In this document: piece by piece, positions 15,864 through 60,047 of the stretch
How positions within the stretch are numbered: the stretch's first letter is position 1
Layout: every line of letters starts with the position of its first letter
NCBI GenBank assembly: GCA_951406725.2
Contig: OX597839.1
Location: 17,980,001-18,044,000 of the forward strand
Source: Octopus vulgaris
Lineage: Eukaryota
DNA length: 64,000 bases
Reading direction: 5' to 3'
The notes under the pieces: generated by a model
Seen by the model: only the letters and a program-made list of their open reading frames with translations
Databases searched by the model: none
Told to the model about the DNA's origin: nothing
Position numbers and translations under genes: made by a program

Positions 15864-15898
<35 letters not shown>

Positions 15899-16007
15899 GT
15901 ATATCCATACATAAATACATATATATGCACACACAAACACACATATATATCTAAACATACAGATCTTGTATACATACATATATACATGTGTATGTATATA
16001 TATATAT

Positions 16008-16517
16008 ATGCGCGAACGTGTGAGTGCGCATGCGCGAAGGTGTGAGTGCGCATGCGCGAACGTGTAAGTGCGCATGCGTGAACGTGTAAGTGCGCATGCG
16101 TGAGCATGTTCGTGTGTATGCGCGAACGTTTAAGTGCGCATGCGCGAACGTTTTCGTGCGCGCATGCGCGAACGTTTTCGTGCGCATGCGCAAACGTTTT
16201 CGTGCGCATGCGCGAACGTTTTCGTGCGCATGCGCGAACGTTTTCGTGCGTGTGCATGCGCATGCGCGTACGTGTACGTGCGTATGCGCGAACGTGAGCT
16301 TGCGCATGCGCGGTCGTGTAAGTGCGCATGCGCGAACATGTTCGTGCGCATGCGCGAACGTTTAAGTGTGCATGCGCGAACGTGTAAGTGCGCATGCGCG
16401 AACATGTTCGTGCGCATGCGCGAACGTGTGCGTGCGCATGCGCGAACATTTAAGTGCGCATGCGCGCACGTTCAAGTACGCATGCACGCACGTTCAAGTG
16501 CGCATGCGCGAACGTGT
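16008..16517. repeat. 22-bp CpG-rich minisatellite, block 1 (~23 units of GTGCGCATGCGCGAAC-N6)
   Basis: Direct reading. Conserved 16-bp core with variable hexamers (GTGTAA, GTTTTC, ATGTTC, GTTTAA, GTGTGA). Confidence 0.95.
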
Positions 16518-16527
16518 AGAGGTGTGT

Positions 16528-16698
16528 TTAACCCTTTCGATACCAACCCGGCTGAAACTGCCTCTGACTCTGTAGTACAAATGATTTGTTTTCATAAGTT
16601 TTGAATTAAAATCTTCCACTAAACCTTTGTCATGTTCCTAACACTAGCTTAACGATAACTAAGTTATTTTACTAAATTCTTTGTTATATTGTTATATT
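16528..16698. mobile_element. Truncated TTAA-type (piggyBac-like) MITE splitting the minisatellite
   Basis: Starts TTAACCCTTT. The body resembles 12974-13174 and 27850-27920 (AAAATCTTCCA..TTATTTTACTAA). Confidence 0.55.
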
Positions 16699-16700
16699 TA

Positions 16701-17036
16701 CGTGTGCGTGCGCATGCGCGAACGTGTGAGTGCGCATGCGCGTACTTGTGCGTACGCATGCGCGAACGTGTAAGTGCGCATGCGCGAACTTGTGCCTGCG
16801 TATGCGCGAACTTGTGCGTGCGCATGCGCGAACGTGTAGGTGCGCATGCGCCAATGTTTGTTTGCGCATGCGCGAACATGAGCCTGCGCAAACGTGTAAG
16901 GGCGCATGCGCGAACATGTTCGTGCGCATGCACGTACCTGTGCGTGCGCATGCGCGAACGTGAGCTTGCGCATGCGCGTACGTGTATATGCACGTGTGCG
17001 TGCGCATGTGCGAACGTTTGCTTGCGCATGCGCGTC
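16701..17036. repeat. 22-bp CpG-rich minisatellite, block 2 (~15 units)
   Basis: Same unit and orientation as block 1, somewhat more diverged. Confidence 0.95.
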
Positions 17037-17317
17037 GTGTCCGTTACCAGCCTCGCCTGGCCCCCGTACCGGTGGCACGTAAAAGCACCATCCGTTCGTG
17101 GCCGTTTGCCAGCTCCGTCTGGCATCTGTGCAGGTGGCACGCAAAAAGCACCCACTACACTCACGGAGTGGTTGGCGTTAGGAAGAGCATCCAGCTGTAG
17201 AAACACTGCCAGATCAGACTGGGCCTGATGCGACCTTCCGGCTTCACAGACCCCAGTTGAACCGTCCAACCCATGCTAGCATGGAAAGCGGACGCTAAAT
17301 GATGATGATGATGATGA
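17037..17317 (+). mobile_element. RTE LINE 3' UTR fragment with (GAT)n tail
   Basis: Matches 18850-19110. Confidence 0.85.
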
Positions 17318-17960
17318 TATATATGTATATATGTATATATATATATATATATACATGCATACACATATACATGTTTCTATGTGTGTGTATATATATATAA
17401 ATATACACATAAAATCATCATCACTTAACATACCTTTTTCCATGCTAGCATGGGTTGGACTATATACATATGTATGTAGGTATGTACATATGTATATATT
17501 CGTTGGGCACAGCTGGTTAACTGGCTGATTGTCATCTAAAATACCCCTTGAGGAATGCAAGATCAGACAAGTTTTCTTTTGCCATTGGTATTTAAGGTAT
17601 TGATTAATGAAATATCACCATCAATTTTCCGGAGACCGAAGCATACAGAGAGGAGAGCAGAAGACAAAAATGATGCATCATTTTCTCATTATTCAGTGAA
17701 AATCCTGGAAACCTGAAACCTGAGTAACATCAAGATATCAATCTCTGAAGGAGGGGCTTCACAGGAAGGGACAGAATTTCTATGTAGGTGATGAACATAT
17801 ACGTATACGAGTATATGTATGTGCATATATCAATATCTATCTATATATATATAAAATGTATGTATGAGCATATATATAAATGTACATATATACGATTATA
17901 ATAATATACTTATATATAATAATATAAATAATATACATATATATATATAATATAAACATG

Positions 17961-18097: not shown

Positions 18098-19110
18098 AGA
18101 AATAGTTGATAGCTTCCGTTACCTAGATGACCAAGTCAGTAGCGGGGGCGGGTGTGCTGAAAGTGTAGCTGCTAGAGTAAGAATAGCCTGGGCAAAGTTC
18201 AGAGAGCTCTTACCTCTGTTGGTGACAAAAGGCCTCTCGCTCAGAGTAAAAGGCAGACTGCATGACGCATGTGTACGTACAGCCATGCTACATGGCAGTG
18301 AAACATGGGCTGTGACTGCTGAGGATATGCGTAAGCTCGCAAGAAATGAAGCCAGTATGCTCCAATGGATGTGTAATGTCAGTGTTCATACTCGACAGAG
18401 TGTAAGTACCTTGAGAGAAAAGTTGGACCTACGAAGCATCAGTTGTGGTGTGCAAGAGAGACGTTTGCGCTGGTATGGACATGTGGCAAGAATGGATGAA
18501 GATAGTTGTATGAAAAAGTGCCACACCCTAGCAGATGAGGGATCCTGTGGAAGAGGTAGACACAGGAAAACCTGGGATAAGGTGGTGAAGCACGACCTTC
18601 GAACTTTAGCTCTCACCAAGGAAATGACTAAAGACCGAGATCTATGGAAGTATGCTGTGCGTGAGATGACCCGGCAGGACTAGTGAGACCATAACCTGTG
18701 GCTTCTACCTGGGATGTAGCTGGTCCACTTATGCATACCTTTCCTTCTTGGGACACAAAACTCTACTTGTGAAGACCTGTTGAGGCAAGTGAGAATCAGA
18801 ATCGAAATCGAAATCGATCAACATCAATGGAAATTGTAGCTGTGATACCAGTGCCGGTGGTACATAAAAAGCACCATCCGATCGTGACCGTTTGCCAGCC
18901 TCGTCTGGCACCTGTGTCGGCGGCATGTAAAAAGCACCCACTACACTCACGGAGTGGTTGGCGTTAGGGAGGGCATCCAGCCGTAAAAACATTGCCAGAT
19001 CAGACAGGGCCTGGCGCAGCCTTCTGGCTTCCCAGACCCCAGTTGAACCATCCAACCCATGCTAGCATGGAAAACGGACGCTAAACGATGATGATAATGA
19101 TGATGATGAT
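18098..19110 (+). mobile_element. 5'-truncated RTE-clade LINE: ORF C-terminus (18098-18683), 3' UTR and (GAT)n tail
   Basis: Open frame EIVDSFRYLDD..RIAWAKFREL..MLHGSETWAVT..RRLRWYGHVARM..GRGRHRKTW..DRDLWK, typical of the RTE C-terminal region. Confidence 0.9.
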
Positions 19111-20542
19111 ATAATTATATATACATACACACACACACACACACATATATATACATACACACACATATATATATATATACACACACACATATATATACAC
19201 ATATATATATACACTCATATATATATATACACACACATATATATATGCACACATATATATACACACACACACACACATATATAACCACATACTCAAGCAC
19301 ACGCGCATACACACAAAATGAACACAACCTGACACACATCTCCACGTTCACACACACAACCTGACACACGTTCTCACACGCACATACATACGCACACCCA
19401 CATACCAGCACAGATGCCCACATATACCTCCAACAAACAATACTCATACAGATATACAGACATGGGCACAAATACACACGCACATAAGCATACACGCACG
19501 CACATTACGCCTACACAACTCCAACCCCCCCCACACACAAATTCACATACATACACACAATATATGCTTACACGTGCATACACATACGCATACACATATA
19601 GACACAGACACACACACACCCAACACTCACGTATACACACCCACATACGCTTACACACACACATCTACACGCACATACAACACGCACGCATATACATACA
19701 CACACAAATGAACCCACACATACATCCCATACACGCAGCACACAATTATACATACATGTGTACACACATACGCACGTACAAGCACACATACACACACGAA
19801 CACACATACACACACTACAAACAAAACACACAACACAATACATATACGCACACACACACACATACTTCAAACTAGCAGTACCTCTCACATGGGTAGACAC
19901 AAGAGCCACCCTTAATTCCTTCTTCCTTGACCTTAAACAATACTAAGCCTTACAACACACAGATTTACAGCCACAACCACACACACAAACACGTGTTATC
20001 ATTGCACACATACACACACACGTAGATCTTCGCGCACGCACATACCTCCTCTTGCACTCTCCTGTTTTTGAAAGAACTTTTTTCACCCATTTCCTTCCGG
20101 TCATTCAAAATTGTGCCCGCGTGTTTACCATTGACGATTATTTTTCCTCCGTCTTCCCTTCTCTGGATCTTTTCTTCTCCTATGTTTCCGACGTAAAACC
20201 CTCCTTCTTCTCTTCCTTCCTGAGCGTCCAATAATACTATATTTGTTCCACGTCCTCGCATTGTTGTGTTTTCATGTTTGGATTAACTTTATATACCGCA
20301 CGCTCACACGGACCCCGGCCTTCCGACTGCCTTGAATAACCAATTCCTGGATTTTTACACCTACGGATTACTGTTACCATTCATCCGGAGTACGCCACTG
20401 TAATCGTGATTGGAAATCAAAAAAGTTTGTCCGCGACTCTCCCACTTTTTCCTTGTCCTCTTTTTACCTTTCTTCTTCTACTTCCACTTTTCCACTTGTG
20501 TCGCCACCACTTACACCTACACAGACATTCACTACTTCTCAA

Positions 20543-22300
20543 CATGCCTGACTTACACTCGTTCCAACAACACCTTCAATCCCTTCTTTGCCGTTTTCTT
20601 GCTTTTTGCCCCCCTCAATGCTTGCAACCCGCAAAAAAACTTTCTCAATTAGTTTTTAAAAAAACTCGCCACTCTAGTCATCTCTCCTTTCTTAGCCGTT
20701 GCCTCCACCATCACGTCATACCCCGTGGCTTCCTCTTGAAGTTCCACGCCACCCCCTATTCCTCCCCTCTCATCGAACCCACCCTCGCCCGCACCTCCCG
20801 CCTCCTCATCCGTGCCACCATCCGTTCCACCCGCTCTCTCCTTTACTCTCTTGACCACCAACTTCCCCAGGCTTACCTCCTCCTCTTCTCCCTCTGCCCT
20901 CCACTCTTCACCCAACCCATTCTCCGCTTCATTCTTAATCTCAACCACCAACTCCACAATTTCCTCACACACACAAAAAACAAAAAACTCTACCACCTCC
21001 TCAACCCTTCACCTCCCACATCCCCTACACCCTCCCCTCCAGCTCCCCCGACCCCCTCCAATCCCGCACCCACCATGCCCGGCACCCTCCACAGACCCAC
21101 ACACACCCCACCCTGACTTTCCTACCCCTACCCCATCTTCACCCAACCATTCAAACCCTCCTCCCCACACCTCTGCACCCCAACTTCCTGACCCCACTCA
21201 TCCCACCACCCTGCTCCCTCGCACTGTTGTTACTATACCCCCAATCTCCCCCTCTCCGCTGCCGAGCGCTCTCTCCTCAGTAGGGGACTCCGCCACTGCG
21301 ACGAATTTGAGACCCGCGCCGACGTCAACCAGTTCCTGCACCGCATCAAACTTGGCACCTTTTTCCACACGTCCACACAACGTCACAACAATCAGGATTG
21401 CTTTTCTGAGCTAGGGCGCCACCCATCCAACTGGACGCCACCTCCAGGCCAATTCAGTAGCCTAGATTTGTTCGTGCAATGCGTTGGTCAACCGATTCGA
21501 TTTCAAAAAAAGATCTCTCCGAGTCAACCTCACTCGTGCTGAATCGATTGCCCTTCGCAACCTTCATCGCCGCAATGACATTGTCATCAAACCGGCAGAC
21601 AAAGGCGGAGCAGTGGTGGTGTGGCGCGCGGACCTATACAGGGAGGAAGCGCTCAGCCAGCTTCAAAATCCCCTCTTCTATCGCCTCCTACCAACAGCGA
21701 GTGTCCTCCACCATCCACGACCTCATCTCCTCTTCTGCTCTCCCCCCCCCCACCGCCACCAACCTCATCGTCCGTACACCCCAGACCTCCACCATCTATT
21801 TCCTTCCCAAAATCGTTTCTGCCTGTAATTGTCCCACCGAACTCATTTCCCTATACCTTGACCGCATCCTGTCCCCTTTAGTTGCTGCCCTCCCATCCCA
21901 CATACATGACACTAACCACGCCCTTCGTCTCTTCAATTCCTTTTCCTTCCCTCCCAGCCCCTCACACCTCCTCTTCACCTTAGACATCAAATCCCTTTAC
22001 ACTGTGATTCCCCACAACGACGGTCTCTTAGACCTCCAATACTTCCTCGACCGTCGCCCTGACCCCACACCCAGCACCCCCACCCTTCTCCGCCTGGCAG
22101 AGCTCATCCTCACCCTCAACTAAGGGATGTTCGGCGAGGTTCCAACTCTGGCCAACCATTCCCCCGGTGACATCTCTGTGTTTGGTCTAGCCCCACACAA
22201 CGGACCCCACAATCCAGGCTTCACCTGGAACAACGATTTATATTTAATTTACGGACTCATATCCCGCACGGACTTAACACAGCCCCCTCCTCTTAGTGAC
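20543..22300 (+). pseudogene. Penelope-like RT/GIY-YIG ORF, disrupted
   Basis: Several frameshifts. The RT breaks off at LAELILTLN (22120) and jumps to the end of the endonuclease, so the catalytic RT motifs and the GIY-YIG core are missing. Confidence 0.85.
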
Positions 22301-23500
22301 TGCTTCTACACCCGCCGCAACAAGTAAATTTATTCTTATTATTTCTTCTTTCTTCTCTTTTTTTCATTTTCTTTCCTTACGTGCAATTACGTCTTTTTTA
22401 TTGTTTTATAATTTTTTTGTTTTTTTATTGATTATAATTTTATTGTTTTTATACACGAACACATACTCACGTACCCACGAACACACACATACATATATAC
22501 TTCCACACACATACACACACGCATACATACACATATACGCACACCCACATACACCCACACACAGGAATGCACAGAAACCTATCCCACCCAACTCCACGCA
22601 CACACAGACACACATACCTTTAGACACACACAACCACATACATGCACATACTCAAGCACACGCGCATACACACAACCTGACACACATCTCCATGTTCACA
22701 CACACAACCTGACACATGTCTCTACGTTCTCACACACATTTACACACGCATGCACATACGTATGCACATGATACACGCACACACACATACACACGTACAT
22801 ACACACACACCAGCACAGATGCCCACATATACCTCCAACAAACAATACTCATACAGATACGCACACAATTATACACACATACACACACACACATTTTGCC
22901 TACACAACTCCAACCCCCCCACACACACACACACACGCATACATAAATTCACATACACCTATACATATACATACACACGATATATACCTACACGCGCACA
23001 CACACAAACATACGTATACACATATAGACACAGACTCACACACACGCACACGAATACACGCACCCAACACTCACAACCCCACGGATACACGTATATACAC
23101 CCACATACGCTTACACACATACATACATGCGCATACGACATGCACACACACACAAATGAACCCACACATACATCCCATACACACAGCACACAATTATACA
23201 TACACACAAAATTATACATACATGTATACACACATATGCACGTACAAGCACACACAAACTCTACGCATACACACACAAACACACACACGTGTTATCATTG
23301 CACACATACACACACACATGCACACCTTCGCGCATGCACATATCCACCCTTACACACACATACCTCCTCTTGCACTCTCCTGTCTTTGAAAGAACTTTTT
23401 TCACCCATTTCCTTCCGGTCATTCAAAATGTAACCGCGTGTGTACCGTTGGCGATTTTTTGTCTTCCGTCTTCCCTTCTCTGGATCTTTCCTTCTCCTAT

Positions 23501-23535
23501 GTTTCTGACGAAGAGCTCTGCTCGAAACGTTAAAC
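23501..23535 (+). ncRNA. Minimal type I hammerhead ribozyme in the right pLTR
   Basis: GTTT-CTGACGA-A-GAGC TCT GCTC-GAAA-CGT-T-AAAC. Intact core, 4-bp stem II, palindromic ACGT stem III and GTTT/AAAC stem I. Confidence 0.8.
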
Positions 23536-23937
23536 CCTCCTTCTTCTCTTCCTACTTGAGCGTCCAATAATACTATATTTGTTCCACGTCCTCGCGTTGT
23601 TGTGTTTTCATGTTTGGATTAACTATATATATATATATATACACACATACGATAAACTTATATCCGATGAAGTATACAGATATATACGTATATACACTCA
23701 ATCACATATACATAAATATACATGTATACATATATATTGATATATTCTTACACAAAGCCACAGCTACATATATACAGTCCTACCTAATATATATACACAT
23801 ACATTTATACATCAATATACACAAACACATACATATCCATATATTTATATACATTTATGTCTACAATTGAAAAAATAAACTAATTATAAGTTAAATAATT
23901 ATAAATACACAACACGTTCATTAAATAAATAAACGAG

Positions 23938-31465: not shown

Positions 31466-31576
31466 CAAGCAGGGAATTACATGAACCATCCACTTCCTCC
31501 GATACCAAGAGCAAATACCAGATATATAACCAACGACGAGATTGATGATGAGTTCAACTGGGACAAACTGCTATGA
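31466..31576 (+). CDS. FOXJ2/3: Terminal coding exon of a probable FoxJ2/3-like forkhead transcription factor
   Basis: Acceptor TTTTTGCTGTTTCCAG, then QAGNYMNHPLPPIPRANTRYITNDEIDDEFNWDKLL*. The acidic-aromatic tail resembles the C-termini of vertebrate FOXJ2/FOXJ3 as I recall them (..EEIPDDFDWDLIT / ..DDIQDDFDWDSIV). No forkhead domain was found in the window. Confidence 0.65.
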   Translation, partial: QAGNYMNHPLPPIPRANTRYITNDEIDDEFNWDKLL

Positions 31577-58020: not shown

Positions 58021-59534
58021 AAAAAAAAATACATCCCTGAACCCAAAGCCAAACTGATGTATGGACCAATATGGGCCATAGCACATGCAATCTTAAGTTA
58101 GCAACGTGCCCAAGCATTGAGGATCCCTTTAATTCAGAAGCTTCTAGCTTGGGGCTAACAATTAAAACATAAAGAATCAAAAAAGTACCATCTCATTCCA
58201 CGAAATACTATCTATATCTGTACCAACATCCATGTGCCAACTTCTAGATCAGCTCAGAATCAAGGGTCAGAAAAGAATAGCAACAATGAAACACCTGTCA
58301 GAGACCAACGTGGTTATGGGTGAAAAGGAAAGATAGATGGAACTGAAAAGAAGTACAGAAAGTCATTAAACATAGGAGAAAGCAAACCCAGTTTGAAAGA
58401 GTGCAAGTTCATGTGATGGACATTGTGGCTGAGCAATAAGGTCACCCAAAGGTTTTGAGTTCAATCCCAACTACAGGTGGCATTTAAATAACAGCGGAGG
58501 ACACCTCAGAAATCACTATCTAGATGGCCCAGTCCCCTAAAGTGTCATGAACAAATAGGTTTTGACACTCACCTTATAGCATGTTTTCATTTTGCAATAT
58601 CACAAACTGCTGACACAGATAAGTTTAAAATAGAAAATAAAAAAAACTACCATCAAATGGTAACTTCTAGAAACAAGACAAAATCCCTTCCTGCTTTCAT
58701 CCAGAAAATTATTAAGCTAGATGGGAACAATAATACTAAAATAAATATCTATGCAATATTGCTGTATCAGGTAATCTGTTACAGGATGGATATGAAAAAC
58801 TATTTCTAGAAACAGGGCAAAATTAATTCCTACTTTCATTGGCAAACTTAAGTCTAATAGAAACCATTTTAAAAAACTCTACAAAATACAATCATATCAT
58901 ATAATGTCCCCTTTTTCATACTATCATGGATTGGAAAGTTTGATAGGAACCAACAAACCAGAGGGTTGCACCAAGCTTCAATGCCTGCTTTGGCTTGGTT
59001 TCCTATGGCTGGATGCCCTTCCTAACACCAACCACTTTATAGTATGTACTGGGTGCATTTTTTCATGACACCAACATTTGTGAGGCTACCAAGTATTAGG
59101 TAAGGGCCCAATTTCAGCAGAGTATATTCAGGCAAAAAAAGTCTTTAGTAAATTAAAGTGTGTAATATTAAAAGTAATTTAAGTCTCATGTTATGCTAAT
59201 TCCCTTTGCAGGGTAAAGACCTGCTTCAGTCTTGAATGACCAAGGGATTGCACCTCTAAAGTTACCTTCCAAAGCACAAGTCTGGGAAAGGTTGTTTATG
59301 GAAAACCAGTAGTCGCCCATGCATACCAGCCTCCCCTCTCCACGCCACTGATGTTATCCAAGGGGAAGGCAAAGGTTGATACAGCTTGGCATCAGTGACA
59401 TCACAACTCATTTCTACAGCAAGTGAACTGGAGTAACACAACACTCAAACCAGTCCAGAAATCAAACTCATTACCACATGATTGAGAGCTCAACGCTCTA
59501 ACCACTGAGCCATGTGCATTCCTTTTATAAGTAA

Positions 59535-60047
59535 CTAGCAGTATCGCCCGGCGTTGCTCGGGTTTGTAAGGGAAATAACTATATAAGCATTTTTAGAGAG
59601 TTATTTCCCTTATAGATGCCAATTCGGGCTTTCTTAGCCATTTCTGTTTTGGTGTCTTCAAGCCATGAAGTCGTTGTTCTAAAAGAACGCTGGTCTCCTT
59701 GACAACGCTTTACGACGTTGATTTCCTTACACTCCCTTCCCCACAGCTTCACGAGGGAGGGAAGAAGGGGGAGAAGCAAACAGGTGCAGGTGTGACCATG
59801 GACGCCAACTGCGCCGCCATCGACACACGAAAAATTATGCATTAAAATGGAATAAAAAATGATGTTAAATTATTTTAAAAATCGTAGACTCATCGTAGAC
59901 GCGCGCTAATACTTAGACGAGCTCGATATGAATCACGACTATAAGATACCCGAATTTGGTTAAACTGCACCGCAAAATGTGGGAGTAGTTAGGAATCTAA
60001 ATCGAAGGGGACAGACACTCACACAACTACAGTTTTATATATATAGA
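59535..60047 (-). mobile_element. Non-autonomous Helitron
   Basis: Minus strand A|TCTATATATATAAAAC ... CCCGAGCAACGCCGGG hairpin .. CTAG|T, inserted at an A|T site. CpG-rich. Confidence 0.85.

What the first reader, a model, noticed from the sequence alone, without database searches (positions are those of the whole stretch)
16008..17036. Helically phased array of ~38 NRF1-type palindromes forming a CpG-rich minisatellite
Seen: a 22-bp unit GTGCGCATGCGCGAAC-N6 with a conserved core and a variable hexamer, about 23 + 15 copies, extremely CpG-dense in an otherwise CpG-poor window, split by a MITE fragment. Known: TGCGCATGCGCR is the binding consensus of the NRF1/Erect wing/P3A2 family, and NRF1 binding is blocked by CpG methylation. 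A 22-bp period is about two helical turns, so the sites face the same side of the DNA. The ATGTTC variant makes the whole unit two-fold symmetric and creates GAACATGTTC, a perfect p53-family RRRCWWGYYY half-site (16334, 16400, 16912). Inference: the array could act as a methylation-gated homotypic enhancer or transcription-factor sink, or as a cruciform/Z-DNA or dsRNA (ADAR) element, probably within an intron of the FoxJ2/3-like gene.
Basis: partly seen in the sequence, partly recalled or inferred. Interest (0 to 1): 0.75.

Follow-up and report, generated by a model that had tools for sequence, protein, structure and literature searches.

The report
Hitch-hiking NRF1-site minisatellite family
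This intronic repeat is one of at least 55 scattered copies of a short tandem repeat whose unit spells the ideal docking site of the gene regulator NRF1; the copies sit joined to pieces of jumping genes that likely carried them, and binding of the protein, which is untested, may help the repeat multiply.

Summary
The array is real: 36 well-formed 22-bp units in two blocks, 26 with an intact GCGCATGCGC. It is not unique. The same unit forms arrays in at least 55 stretches on 21 contigs and holds about 1,980 of the genome's 6,911 perfect 10-mers. Most arrays are fused to a small Helitron. The window's copy belongs to a Helitron-free branch (MITE fragment + array + LINE 3' end) whose junctions recur at other loci. 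It lies in a late intron of a FoxJ2/3 gene, probably as a passenger. The genome encodes NRF1 with all three base-reading residues. Variants that spread within lineages avoid the 10-bp NRF1 footprint (3 of 30 possible alleles against 22 of 36 outside), while private mutations do not. This suggests a filter at copying, not lasting selection; 12 held-out arrays support it more weakly. Helical phasing, p53 sites, whole-unit symmetry and a methylation gate are not supported. Binding is untested. The scan found this pattern before, on other DNA of this genome, for other factors' sites.

The parts
15866..16007 (.). (AT)n-rich microsatellite that flanks the composite on the left
16008..16518 (+). Array block 1: 22 well-formed 22-bp units and one partial unit, core GCGCATGCGC
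16515..16527 (+). 13-bp stretch ahead of the MITE that is shared with the array locus at G000:C12:9.75 Mb; its first bases overlap the last unit
16528..16690 (+). Left part of an abundant MITE (TTAA then CCCTT; free copies end AAGGG then TTAA; piggyBac-type label recalled), cut off on the right
16691..16699 (+). Short duplicated junction between MITE and array, the same at 5 loci
16700..17036 (+). Array block 2: 14 well-formed units and broken ones
17035..17318 (+). 3' end of a LINE-type retroposon (60-bp internal repeats, (ATG)n tail); three other arrays end in the same piece
18102..19110 (+). Separate 5'-truncated LINE copy (end of the reverse-transcriptase ORF, then the same 3' sequence and tail); it identifies the piece at 17035-17318
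31466..31576 (+). Likely last coding exon of the FoxJ2/3 host gene (AG acceptor, C-terminal motif, stop); the array lies upstream of it in an intron
   Evidence: the C-terminal match is weak alone (E 0.021) and rests on order with eight upstream exon hits

Best explanation
The array is one copy of a dispersed 22-bp minisatellite family whose unit contains the optimal NRF1 site; the copies are fused to Helitron, MITE or LINE pieces that likely carried them around the genome, and NRF1 binding likely favours the copying of units with an intact site. Shown: family membership, recurring junctions, the NRF1 gene, the intronic place, and the pattern of variation. Inferred steps: (1) a unit was amplified in tandem and fused to the 5' part of a small Helitron, which spread it; (2) one branch was joined to a MITE fragment and a LINE 3' end and was copied as a composite with ragged 5' ends, one copy landing in an (AT)n run of a FoxJ2/3 intron; (3) the largely unmethylated units are bound by NRF1, which would open or transcribe them and so raise their chance of being duplicated or mobilised; (4) once laid down, arrays decay freely, so this copy is probably a passenger and not an evolved enhancer.
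For: Family: an exact 17-mer has 100 matches (control 1); BLAST gives 195 matches; 55 of 56 fetched stretches hold arrays, on 21 contigs. Carrier: Helitron pieces lie within 700 bp of the array in 26 of 43 stretches and beside it in 11 of 12 further ones, against 1 of 59 array-free stretches; the break is at Helitron base 285 in 12 of 43 and 4 of 12. Window branch: the same MITE-array junction at 5 loci and array joined to the LINE 3' end at 4 loci. NRF1: five exon hits on C4; residues matching human R206, N242 and R244 are present (PMC10810270). Variation in 1,886 units whose neighbours, not they themselves, were required to match (1,989 found; one error-rich locus and 5 out-of-register units dropped): alleles at 10% or more in a lineage are 3 of 30 inside the footprint and 22 of 36 outside (base-stratified permutation p 0.0003); all 8 G/C footprint positions are better kept than all 6 G/C positions outside; private mutations are 214 of 1,218 inside and 103 of 714 outside. 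In the window 12 of 360 footprint bases differ against 87 of 432 outside. A core-blind search returned the same core in 73 of 100 listed matches and no sister family with another core (counted by hand; 18 not listed). A whole-unit neighbour rule gave the same profile.
Against: No binding, chromatin or methylation data. The footprint is also a perfect palindrome, so sequence cannot fully separate protein from hairpin effects. Lineages share ancestry, so the p-values overstate independence. In 12 held-out arrays (91 units) the contrast was weaker (63 of 910 against 157 of 1,092), rested mostly on three spacer positions, and G11, G17 and C18 of the core were down to 0.86-0.87. At a 5% threshold 14 of 36 alleles in positions 8-19 count as spread. 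C18T, which should cost about four-fold in affinity, reached 20% in one lineage. Frequencies of core variants do not follow the published Kd order (compared by hand). The four array-linked LINE ends are not one clade (3 changes; 50 of 500 shuffles as low). 17 of 43 stretches, the window among them, have no Helitron piece near the array. No target-site duplication is clear except a possible 5-6 bp one at L006.
Confidence: 0.55

Rival explanations
1. Same mobile family, but the palindrome itself drives copying: single-stranded fold-back between cores promotes slippage and template switching, so units with an intact palindrome are copied more, with no protein involved.
For: Block 1 folds far better than shuffles (z -8.1). 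Fold-back junctions occur: a perfect 26-bp palindrome at 3 loci, an inverted piece at the LINE junction, and arrays that change orientation. C10T+G17A double mutants number 4 against 1.0 expected.
Against: Spacer alleles that would extend the palindrome spread no more often than neutral ones (6 of 10 against 11 of 20), and alleles that break the only Watson-Crick spacer pair spread in 5 of 6 cases. G9A+C18T doubles are 0 against 3.2 expected. Neighbouring AT-rich satellites keep a MEF2-like 10-mer (motif recalled) across three unit lengths, with their three common variants outside it, though samples are small (47 and 117 units).
Confidence: 0.25
2. Neutral history: a few early mutations happened to fall in the spacer and were inherited by all lineages; the NRF1 match is chance and nothing filters the core.
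For: Lineages are related; the held-out set shows a weak contrast; private mutations are flat across the unit.
Against: 25 distinct common alleles, many limited to one long array, fall 22 outside and 3 inside; the best-kept 10-bp window starts at unit position 8 or 9 in 8 of 10 lineages.
Confidence: 0.1
3. One reading: this copy is a methylation-gated, helically phased enhancer or sink that serves the FoxJ2/3 gene.
For: It lies in an intron of that gene and holds 26 intact sites. Octopus methylation is concentrated in gene bodies, and satellites are somewhat more methylated than transposons (PMC9476566, passages). Helitron-borne site clusters are bound in vivo in Caenorhabditis (PMC6927752, passages).
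Against: It is one of 55 or more similar arrays; it has a mosaic transposon anatomy; 10 of 36 units are already broken; CpG transitions are not raised in the window (4 at four CpG sites against 5 at three non-CpG sites) and only 1.3-fold in the family; phase drifts.
Confidence: 0.08
4. Assembly artefact.
For: No public contig bridges the whole stretch; one other locus (L109) looks error-rich.
Against: Array sequence is covered by contigs of 5 independent DNA-type runs under 4 organism labels; units differ from each other in a patterned way; junctions recur at other loci; unique flanks on both sides are covered.
Confidence: 0.02

Closest known systems
Helitron-acquired heat shock elements of Caenorhabditis (PMC6927752; passages and section 6 read)
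   Same: Tandem, dense clusters of one factor's site spread by Helitrons; they hold a large share of all sites in the genome (61% there; about 29% of perfect 10-mers here).
   Different: There binding was shown by ChIP; here it is untested. Another factor (NRF1), a mollusc, and a branch that has moved from the Helitron to a MITE-LINE composite.
Cg_HINE elements of the Pacific oyster (PMC7492417; abstract and section 7 read)
   Same: Short satellite-like arrays scattered through a mollusc genome between shared flanks of rolling-circle elements.
   Different: Cg_HINE are Helentron-type with subterminal inverted repeats; the carrier here has canonical TC and CTAG ends. The window's copy has no rolling-circle ends. 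No factor site was noted in the parts read.
Human Satellite 3 as a transcription-factor platform (PMC11526998; abstract only)
   Same: Tandem repeat whose units hold sites for transcription factors.
   Different: Megabase pericentromeric arrays with shown binding; here arrays of 0.1-5 kb, dispersed and transposon-linked.
Helitron minisatellites that become PATCs in C. elegans (bioRxiv 10.64898/2026.08.08.743475; abstract only)
   Same: Helitron-borne minisatellites inside genes.
   Different: PATCs are tuned to the 10-bp helical repeat and act mechanically; this unit is GC-rich, has a 22-bp period that drifts out of phase, and keeps a protein motif.

Membership tests
NRF1 binding site | GCGCATGCGC 10-mer with AT centre | tested here: met
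   26 of 36 units; consensus and Kd table in PMC10810270
NRF1 binding site | Cognate factor in the genome with base-reading R206, N242, R244 | tested here: met
   numbering from a 52-residue offset in the PDB chain (inferred)
NRF1 binding site | Bound in vivo; unmethylated | not testable with these tools
   Only indirect: CpG transition ratio 1.3. Methylation sensitivity of NRF1 is recalled, not from a call.
Canonical non-autonomous Helitron (the carrier in most loci) | 5' TC, 3' CTRR, hairpin about 11 bp from the 3' end, insertion between A and T | tested here: met
   3' CTAG|T in 21 of 23 ends; 5' A|TC in 27 of 51 pattern matches; hairpin read; definition in PMC4067079
Canonical non-autonomous Helitron (the carrier in most loci) | Autonomous partner with the same ends | not tested
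   no search made
Helitron internal repeat (the window's copy) | Array enclosed by or joined to Helitron ends | tested here: not met
   No Helitron piece near the window's array; the only copy in the window is at 59534-60029
Helentron/HINE central repeat | Subterminal inverted repeats, TT target | tested here: not met
   The carrier's ends are canonical; subterminal repeats were not searched separately
LINE-mobilised composite (window branch) | LINE 3' end with tail and variable 5' truncation | tested here: met
   4 loci end in the same 3' piece and (ATG)n tail and begin at different points
LINE-mobilised composite (window branch) | Target-site duplications; single origin of the 3' ends | tested here: inconclusive
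   Possible 5-6 bp duplication at 1 of 4 loci; tree needs 3 changes and is poorly resolved
p53 response element | Two half-sites within 0-13 bp (recalled) | tested here: not met
   No pair among 22 half-site matches; GAACATGTTC found in 1 of 43 array stretches
Helically phased homotypic cluster | Period a whole number of helical turns | tested here: not met
   22 bp = 2.08-2.12 turns; two small separate arrays have a 26-bp period. Length is kept at 22 in 1,125 neighbour pairs against 23 at 21 bp and 15 at 23 bp.

The most novel reading that the evidence does not exclude
A selfish minisatellite that uses a host transcription factor as its copying aid: tandem NRF1 sites act as a portable, self-renewing promoter or open-chromatin seed that has switched carriers from a Helitron to a MITE-LINE composite, and the family now holds over a quarter of the genome's perfect NRF1 sites, enough to compete with real promoters for the factor.
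Probability: 0.3. Interest if true: 0.75.

Novelty: new variant of a known kind. Interest (0 to 1): 0.45.

Why it matters
If binding drives copying, satellite DNA can be shaped by host transcription factors with no benefit to the host. That would explain why several repeats of this genome spell factor sites, and it warns against reading motif conservation in repeats as enhancer function. The family gives a direct test: about 2,000 natural unit variants, one known protein with a solved complex and measured affinities, and a clear split between variants that spread and variants that stay private. For the FoxJ2/3 gene itself the array is probably incidental.

Tried and rejected
Sequencing runs: no RNA holder was listed. 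Two guessed-RNA runs and one DNA run under another organism label (X7) covered the MITE but almost none of the array; these blanks are not used as evidence on expression or on species range. No contig bridged the stretch. p53 element, whole-unit symmetry and phasing were rejected (and sequence). The ATGTTC variant is one transition from the GTGTTC spacer seen at C12:9.75 Mb. An E2F-like GCGCGAAA (motif recalled) is common in other lineages but absent from the window's array and is not conserved, so it was set aside. Symmetric double mutants gave mixed results. Core-variant frequency against published Kd showed no trend. The tree of LINE ends did not show one origin. I first took 17035-17318 for a SINE; searches show the same sequence behind a LINE ORF, so it is a LINE 3' end or a SINE that shares it. 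Pfam gave no hit above cut-off for that ORF. One fetched stretch (L104) held no array. Paper searches (listings only unless cited) showed no title or abstract start on an NRF1-site minisatellite in cephalopods; subscription journals, repeat libraries and supplements were not seen, so a library entry may exist. Look-ups of earlier notes by sequence, by words and near this place found nothing on this family.

Full report
Observation. The window holds two blocks of a 22-bp repeat at 16008-16518 and 16700-17036. Thirty-six units are well formed, 26 carry an intact GCGCATGCGC, and all 23 exact TGCGCATGCGCR of the window lie here. Shuffles give 0.04 matches where 40 are seen. CpG is about twice the expected level in the blocks and half of it in the window. 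Array sequence is covered by contigs of five independent DNA-type runs under four organism labels, though none bridges the locus. A 22-bp step drifts 27-42 degrees per unit. The p53-like half-sites never pair, and GAACATGTTC occurs in 1 of 43 array stretches. The dyad of the ATGTTC spacer lies one base off the dyad between cores.

A family, not a single element. An exact 17-mer has 100 matches in the genome and the first block has 195 BLAST matches. Of 56 stretches examined, 55 hold arrays, on 21 contigs, from a handful of units to more than 200 in one run; two of the stretches are neighbouring parts of one cluster. They hold 1,907 + 71 of the genome's 6,911 perfect 10-mers, about 29%, a lower bound.

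Carriers. A roughly 500-bp element with 5' TC, a 3' hairpin and CTAG, inserted between A and T, meets the definition of a canonical Helitron (PMC4067079, passages). Pieces of it lie within 700 bp of the array in 26 of 43 stretches and beside it in 11 of 12 more, against 1 of 59 array-free stretches. The array is often fused at Helitron base 285. A 23-bp cap at the other end occurs 20 times in the genome; the six of these places that were new all proved to hold arrays. Several long loci repeat a block of array plus foreign piece head to tail, as rolling-circle or unequal-exchange amplification would give (inference). The window's copy has no Helitron piece nearby. It reads (AT)n, array, left part of a MITE, array, LINE 3' end with (ATG)n tail, (AT)n. 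The MITE-array junction is the same at five loci, and one of them shares 13 bases ahead of the MITE. Four loci join the array to the LINE end; three have one junction and the window has a form about 40 bases shorter. The same 3' sequence follows a reverse-transcriptase ORF at 18102-18683. Ragged 5' ends with a fixed 3' tail fit retrotransposition of a composite RNA, but target-site duplications are unclear and the tree of the 37 LINE ends does not make the four a clade. Other arrays have bare ends. Repair-type copying may therefore contribute.

Host gene. Lingula FoxJ3 matches eight exon pieces in order on the + strand of C26 from 17.222 to 17.883 Mb. A last exon with the C-terminal motif and stop lies at window 31466-31576. 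The array is thus about 14.4 kb upstream of that exon, in an intron of a gene of roughly 790 kb (inferred from order; no transcript seen).

The NRF1 question. Human NRF1 binds GCGCATGCGC best, prefers the AT centre, loses two- to twelve-fold with single changes, and grips the site from opposite sides of the helix (PMC10810270, passages and section 15). The genome has an NRF1 gene with the three base-reading residues. I scored only units whose two neighbours matched, so a unit's own core was not selected: 1,989 units, 1,886 after dropping one error-rich locus and five out-of-register units. Alleles at 10% or more in any of ten lineages number 3 of 30 possible inside the footprint and 22 of 36 outside (stratified permutation p 0.0003). 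Private mutations are as common inside as outside (0.18 against 0.14). A core-blind pattern found no sister family with another core. So the filter seems to act on what gets copied, not on what survives. Against this: lineages are related; at a 5% threshold many more core alleles count; one footprint-breaking allele reached 20% in a lineage; variant frequencies do not follow measured affinities; and 91 held-out units show only a two-fold contrast with decay at core CpGs. CpG transitions are 1.3 times non-CpG transitions in the family, about 2 times in the two short-array branches, and not raised in the window. That points to little germ-line methylation, in line with low methylation of octopus transposons (PMC9476566, passages), and gives no sign of a gate.

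Protein or hairpin. The footprint is a palindrome and the array folds strongly (z -8.1), and fold-back junctions exist. But alleles that extend the palindrome spread no more than neutral ones, and the one paired spacer position is broken freely. Neighbouring AT-rich satellites keep a MEF2-like 10-mer (recalled motif) across three unit lengths (small samples). I favour protein binding about two to one. The idea that binding helps such repeats multiply comes from earlier notes of this scan on other satellites of this genome; I tested it only on this family.

Comparison and verdict. It works like the Helitron-borne heat shock elements of Caenorhabditis (PMC6927752) and is scattered like the oyster Cg_HINE arrays (PMC7492417), but the window's copy fails the test for a Helitron internal repeat. 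Nine paper searches showed no report of this family in their listings; repeat libraries and supplements were not seen. Verdict: real, a new variant of a known kind, probably a passenger at this gene. Interest 0.45; the factor-assisted selfish repeat reading has probability 0.3 and would merit 0.75.

Noticed in passing
G000:C18:9,200-13,000 (L103, L130) and C18:20.24 Mb (L122): NRF1-unit arrays abut satellites of 13, 18 and 20 bp whose units all keep a CTA(A/T)4TAG 10-mer, a MEF2-like site (motif recalled); the common variants lie outside it.
   Followed up: partly
L005, L094 (C1), L101 (C13), L114-L117 (C31), L103/L110/L112 (C18, C30): Other satellites directly beside the arrays: a 13-bp CTATTTGGGTTGG unit, a TTTTCG-rich 12-13-bp unit, a 48-bp unit, and a 152-bp unit made of common repeat pieces.
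   Followed up: no
G000:C26:17,222,229-18,011,576: The FoxJ2/3 gene appears to span about 790 kb, with a 374-kb intron inside the forkhead domain.
   Followed up: partly
window 59534-60029 (-): A full-length copy of the small Helitron, 94.6% like the reference copy, with no array.
   Followed up: no
G000:C1:131,449,099 and C15:17,499,018: Small separate tandem runs of the same 10-mer with a 26-bp period and other spacers.
   Followed up: no
L102 (G000:C15:28.57 Mb): About ten head-to-tail blocks of array plus Helitron 5' piece, with one inversion.
   Followed up: no
L109 (G000:C30:1.55 Mb): Sequence between arrays looks blended with array bases, probably a polishing error; dropped from the statistics.
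   Followed up: partly
window 20340-23600: Strong strand skew with open frames that look like a decayed reverse-transcriptase element of another kind, flanked by a repeated stretch; not examined.
   Followed up: no
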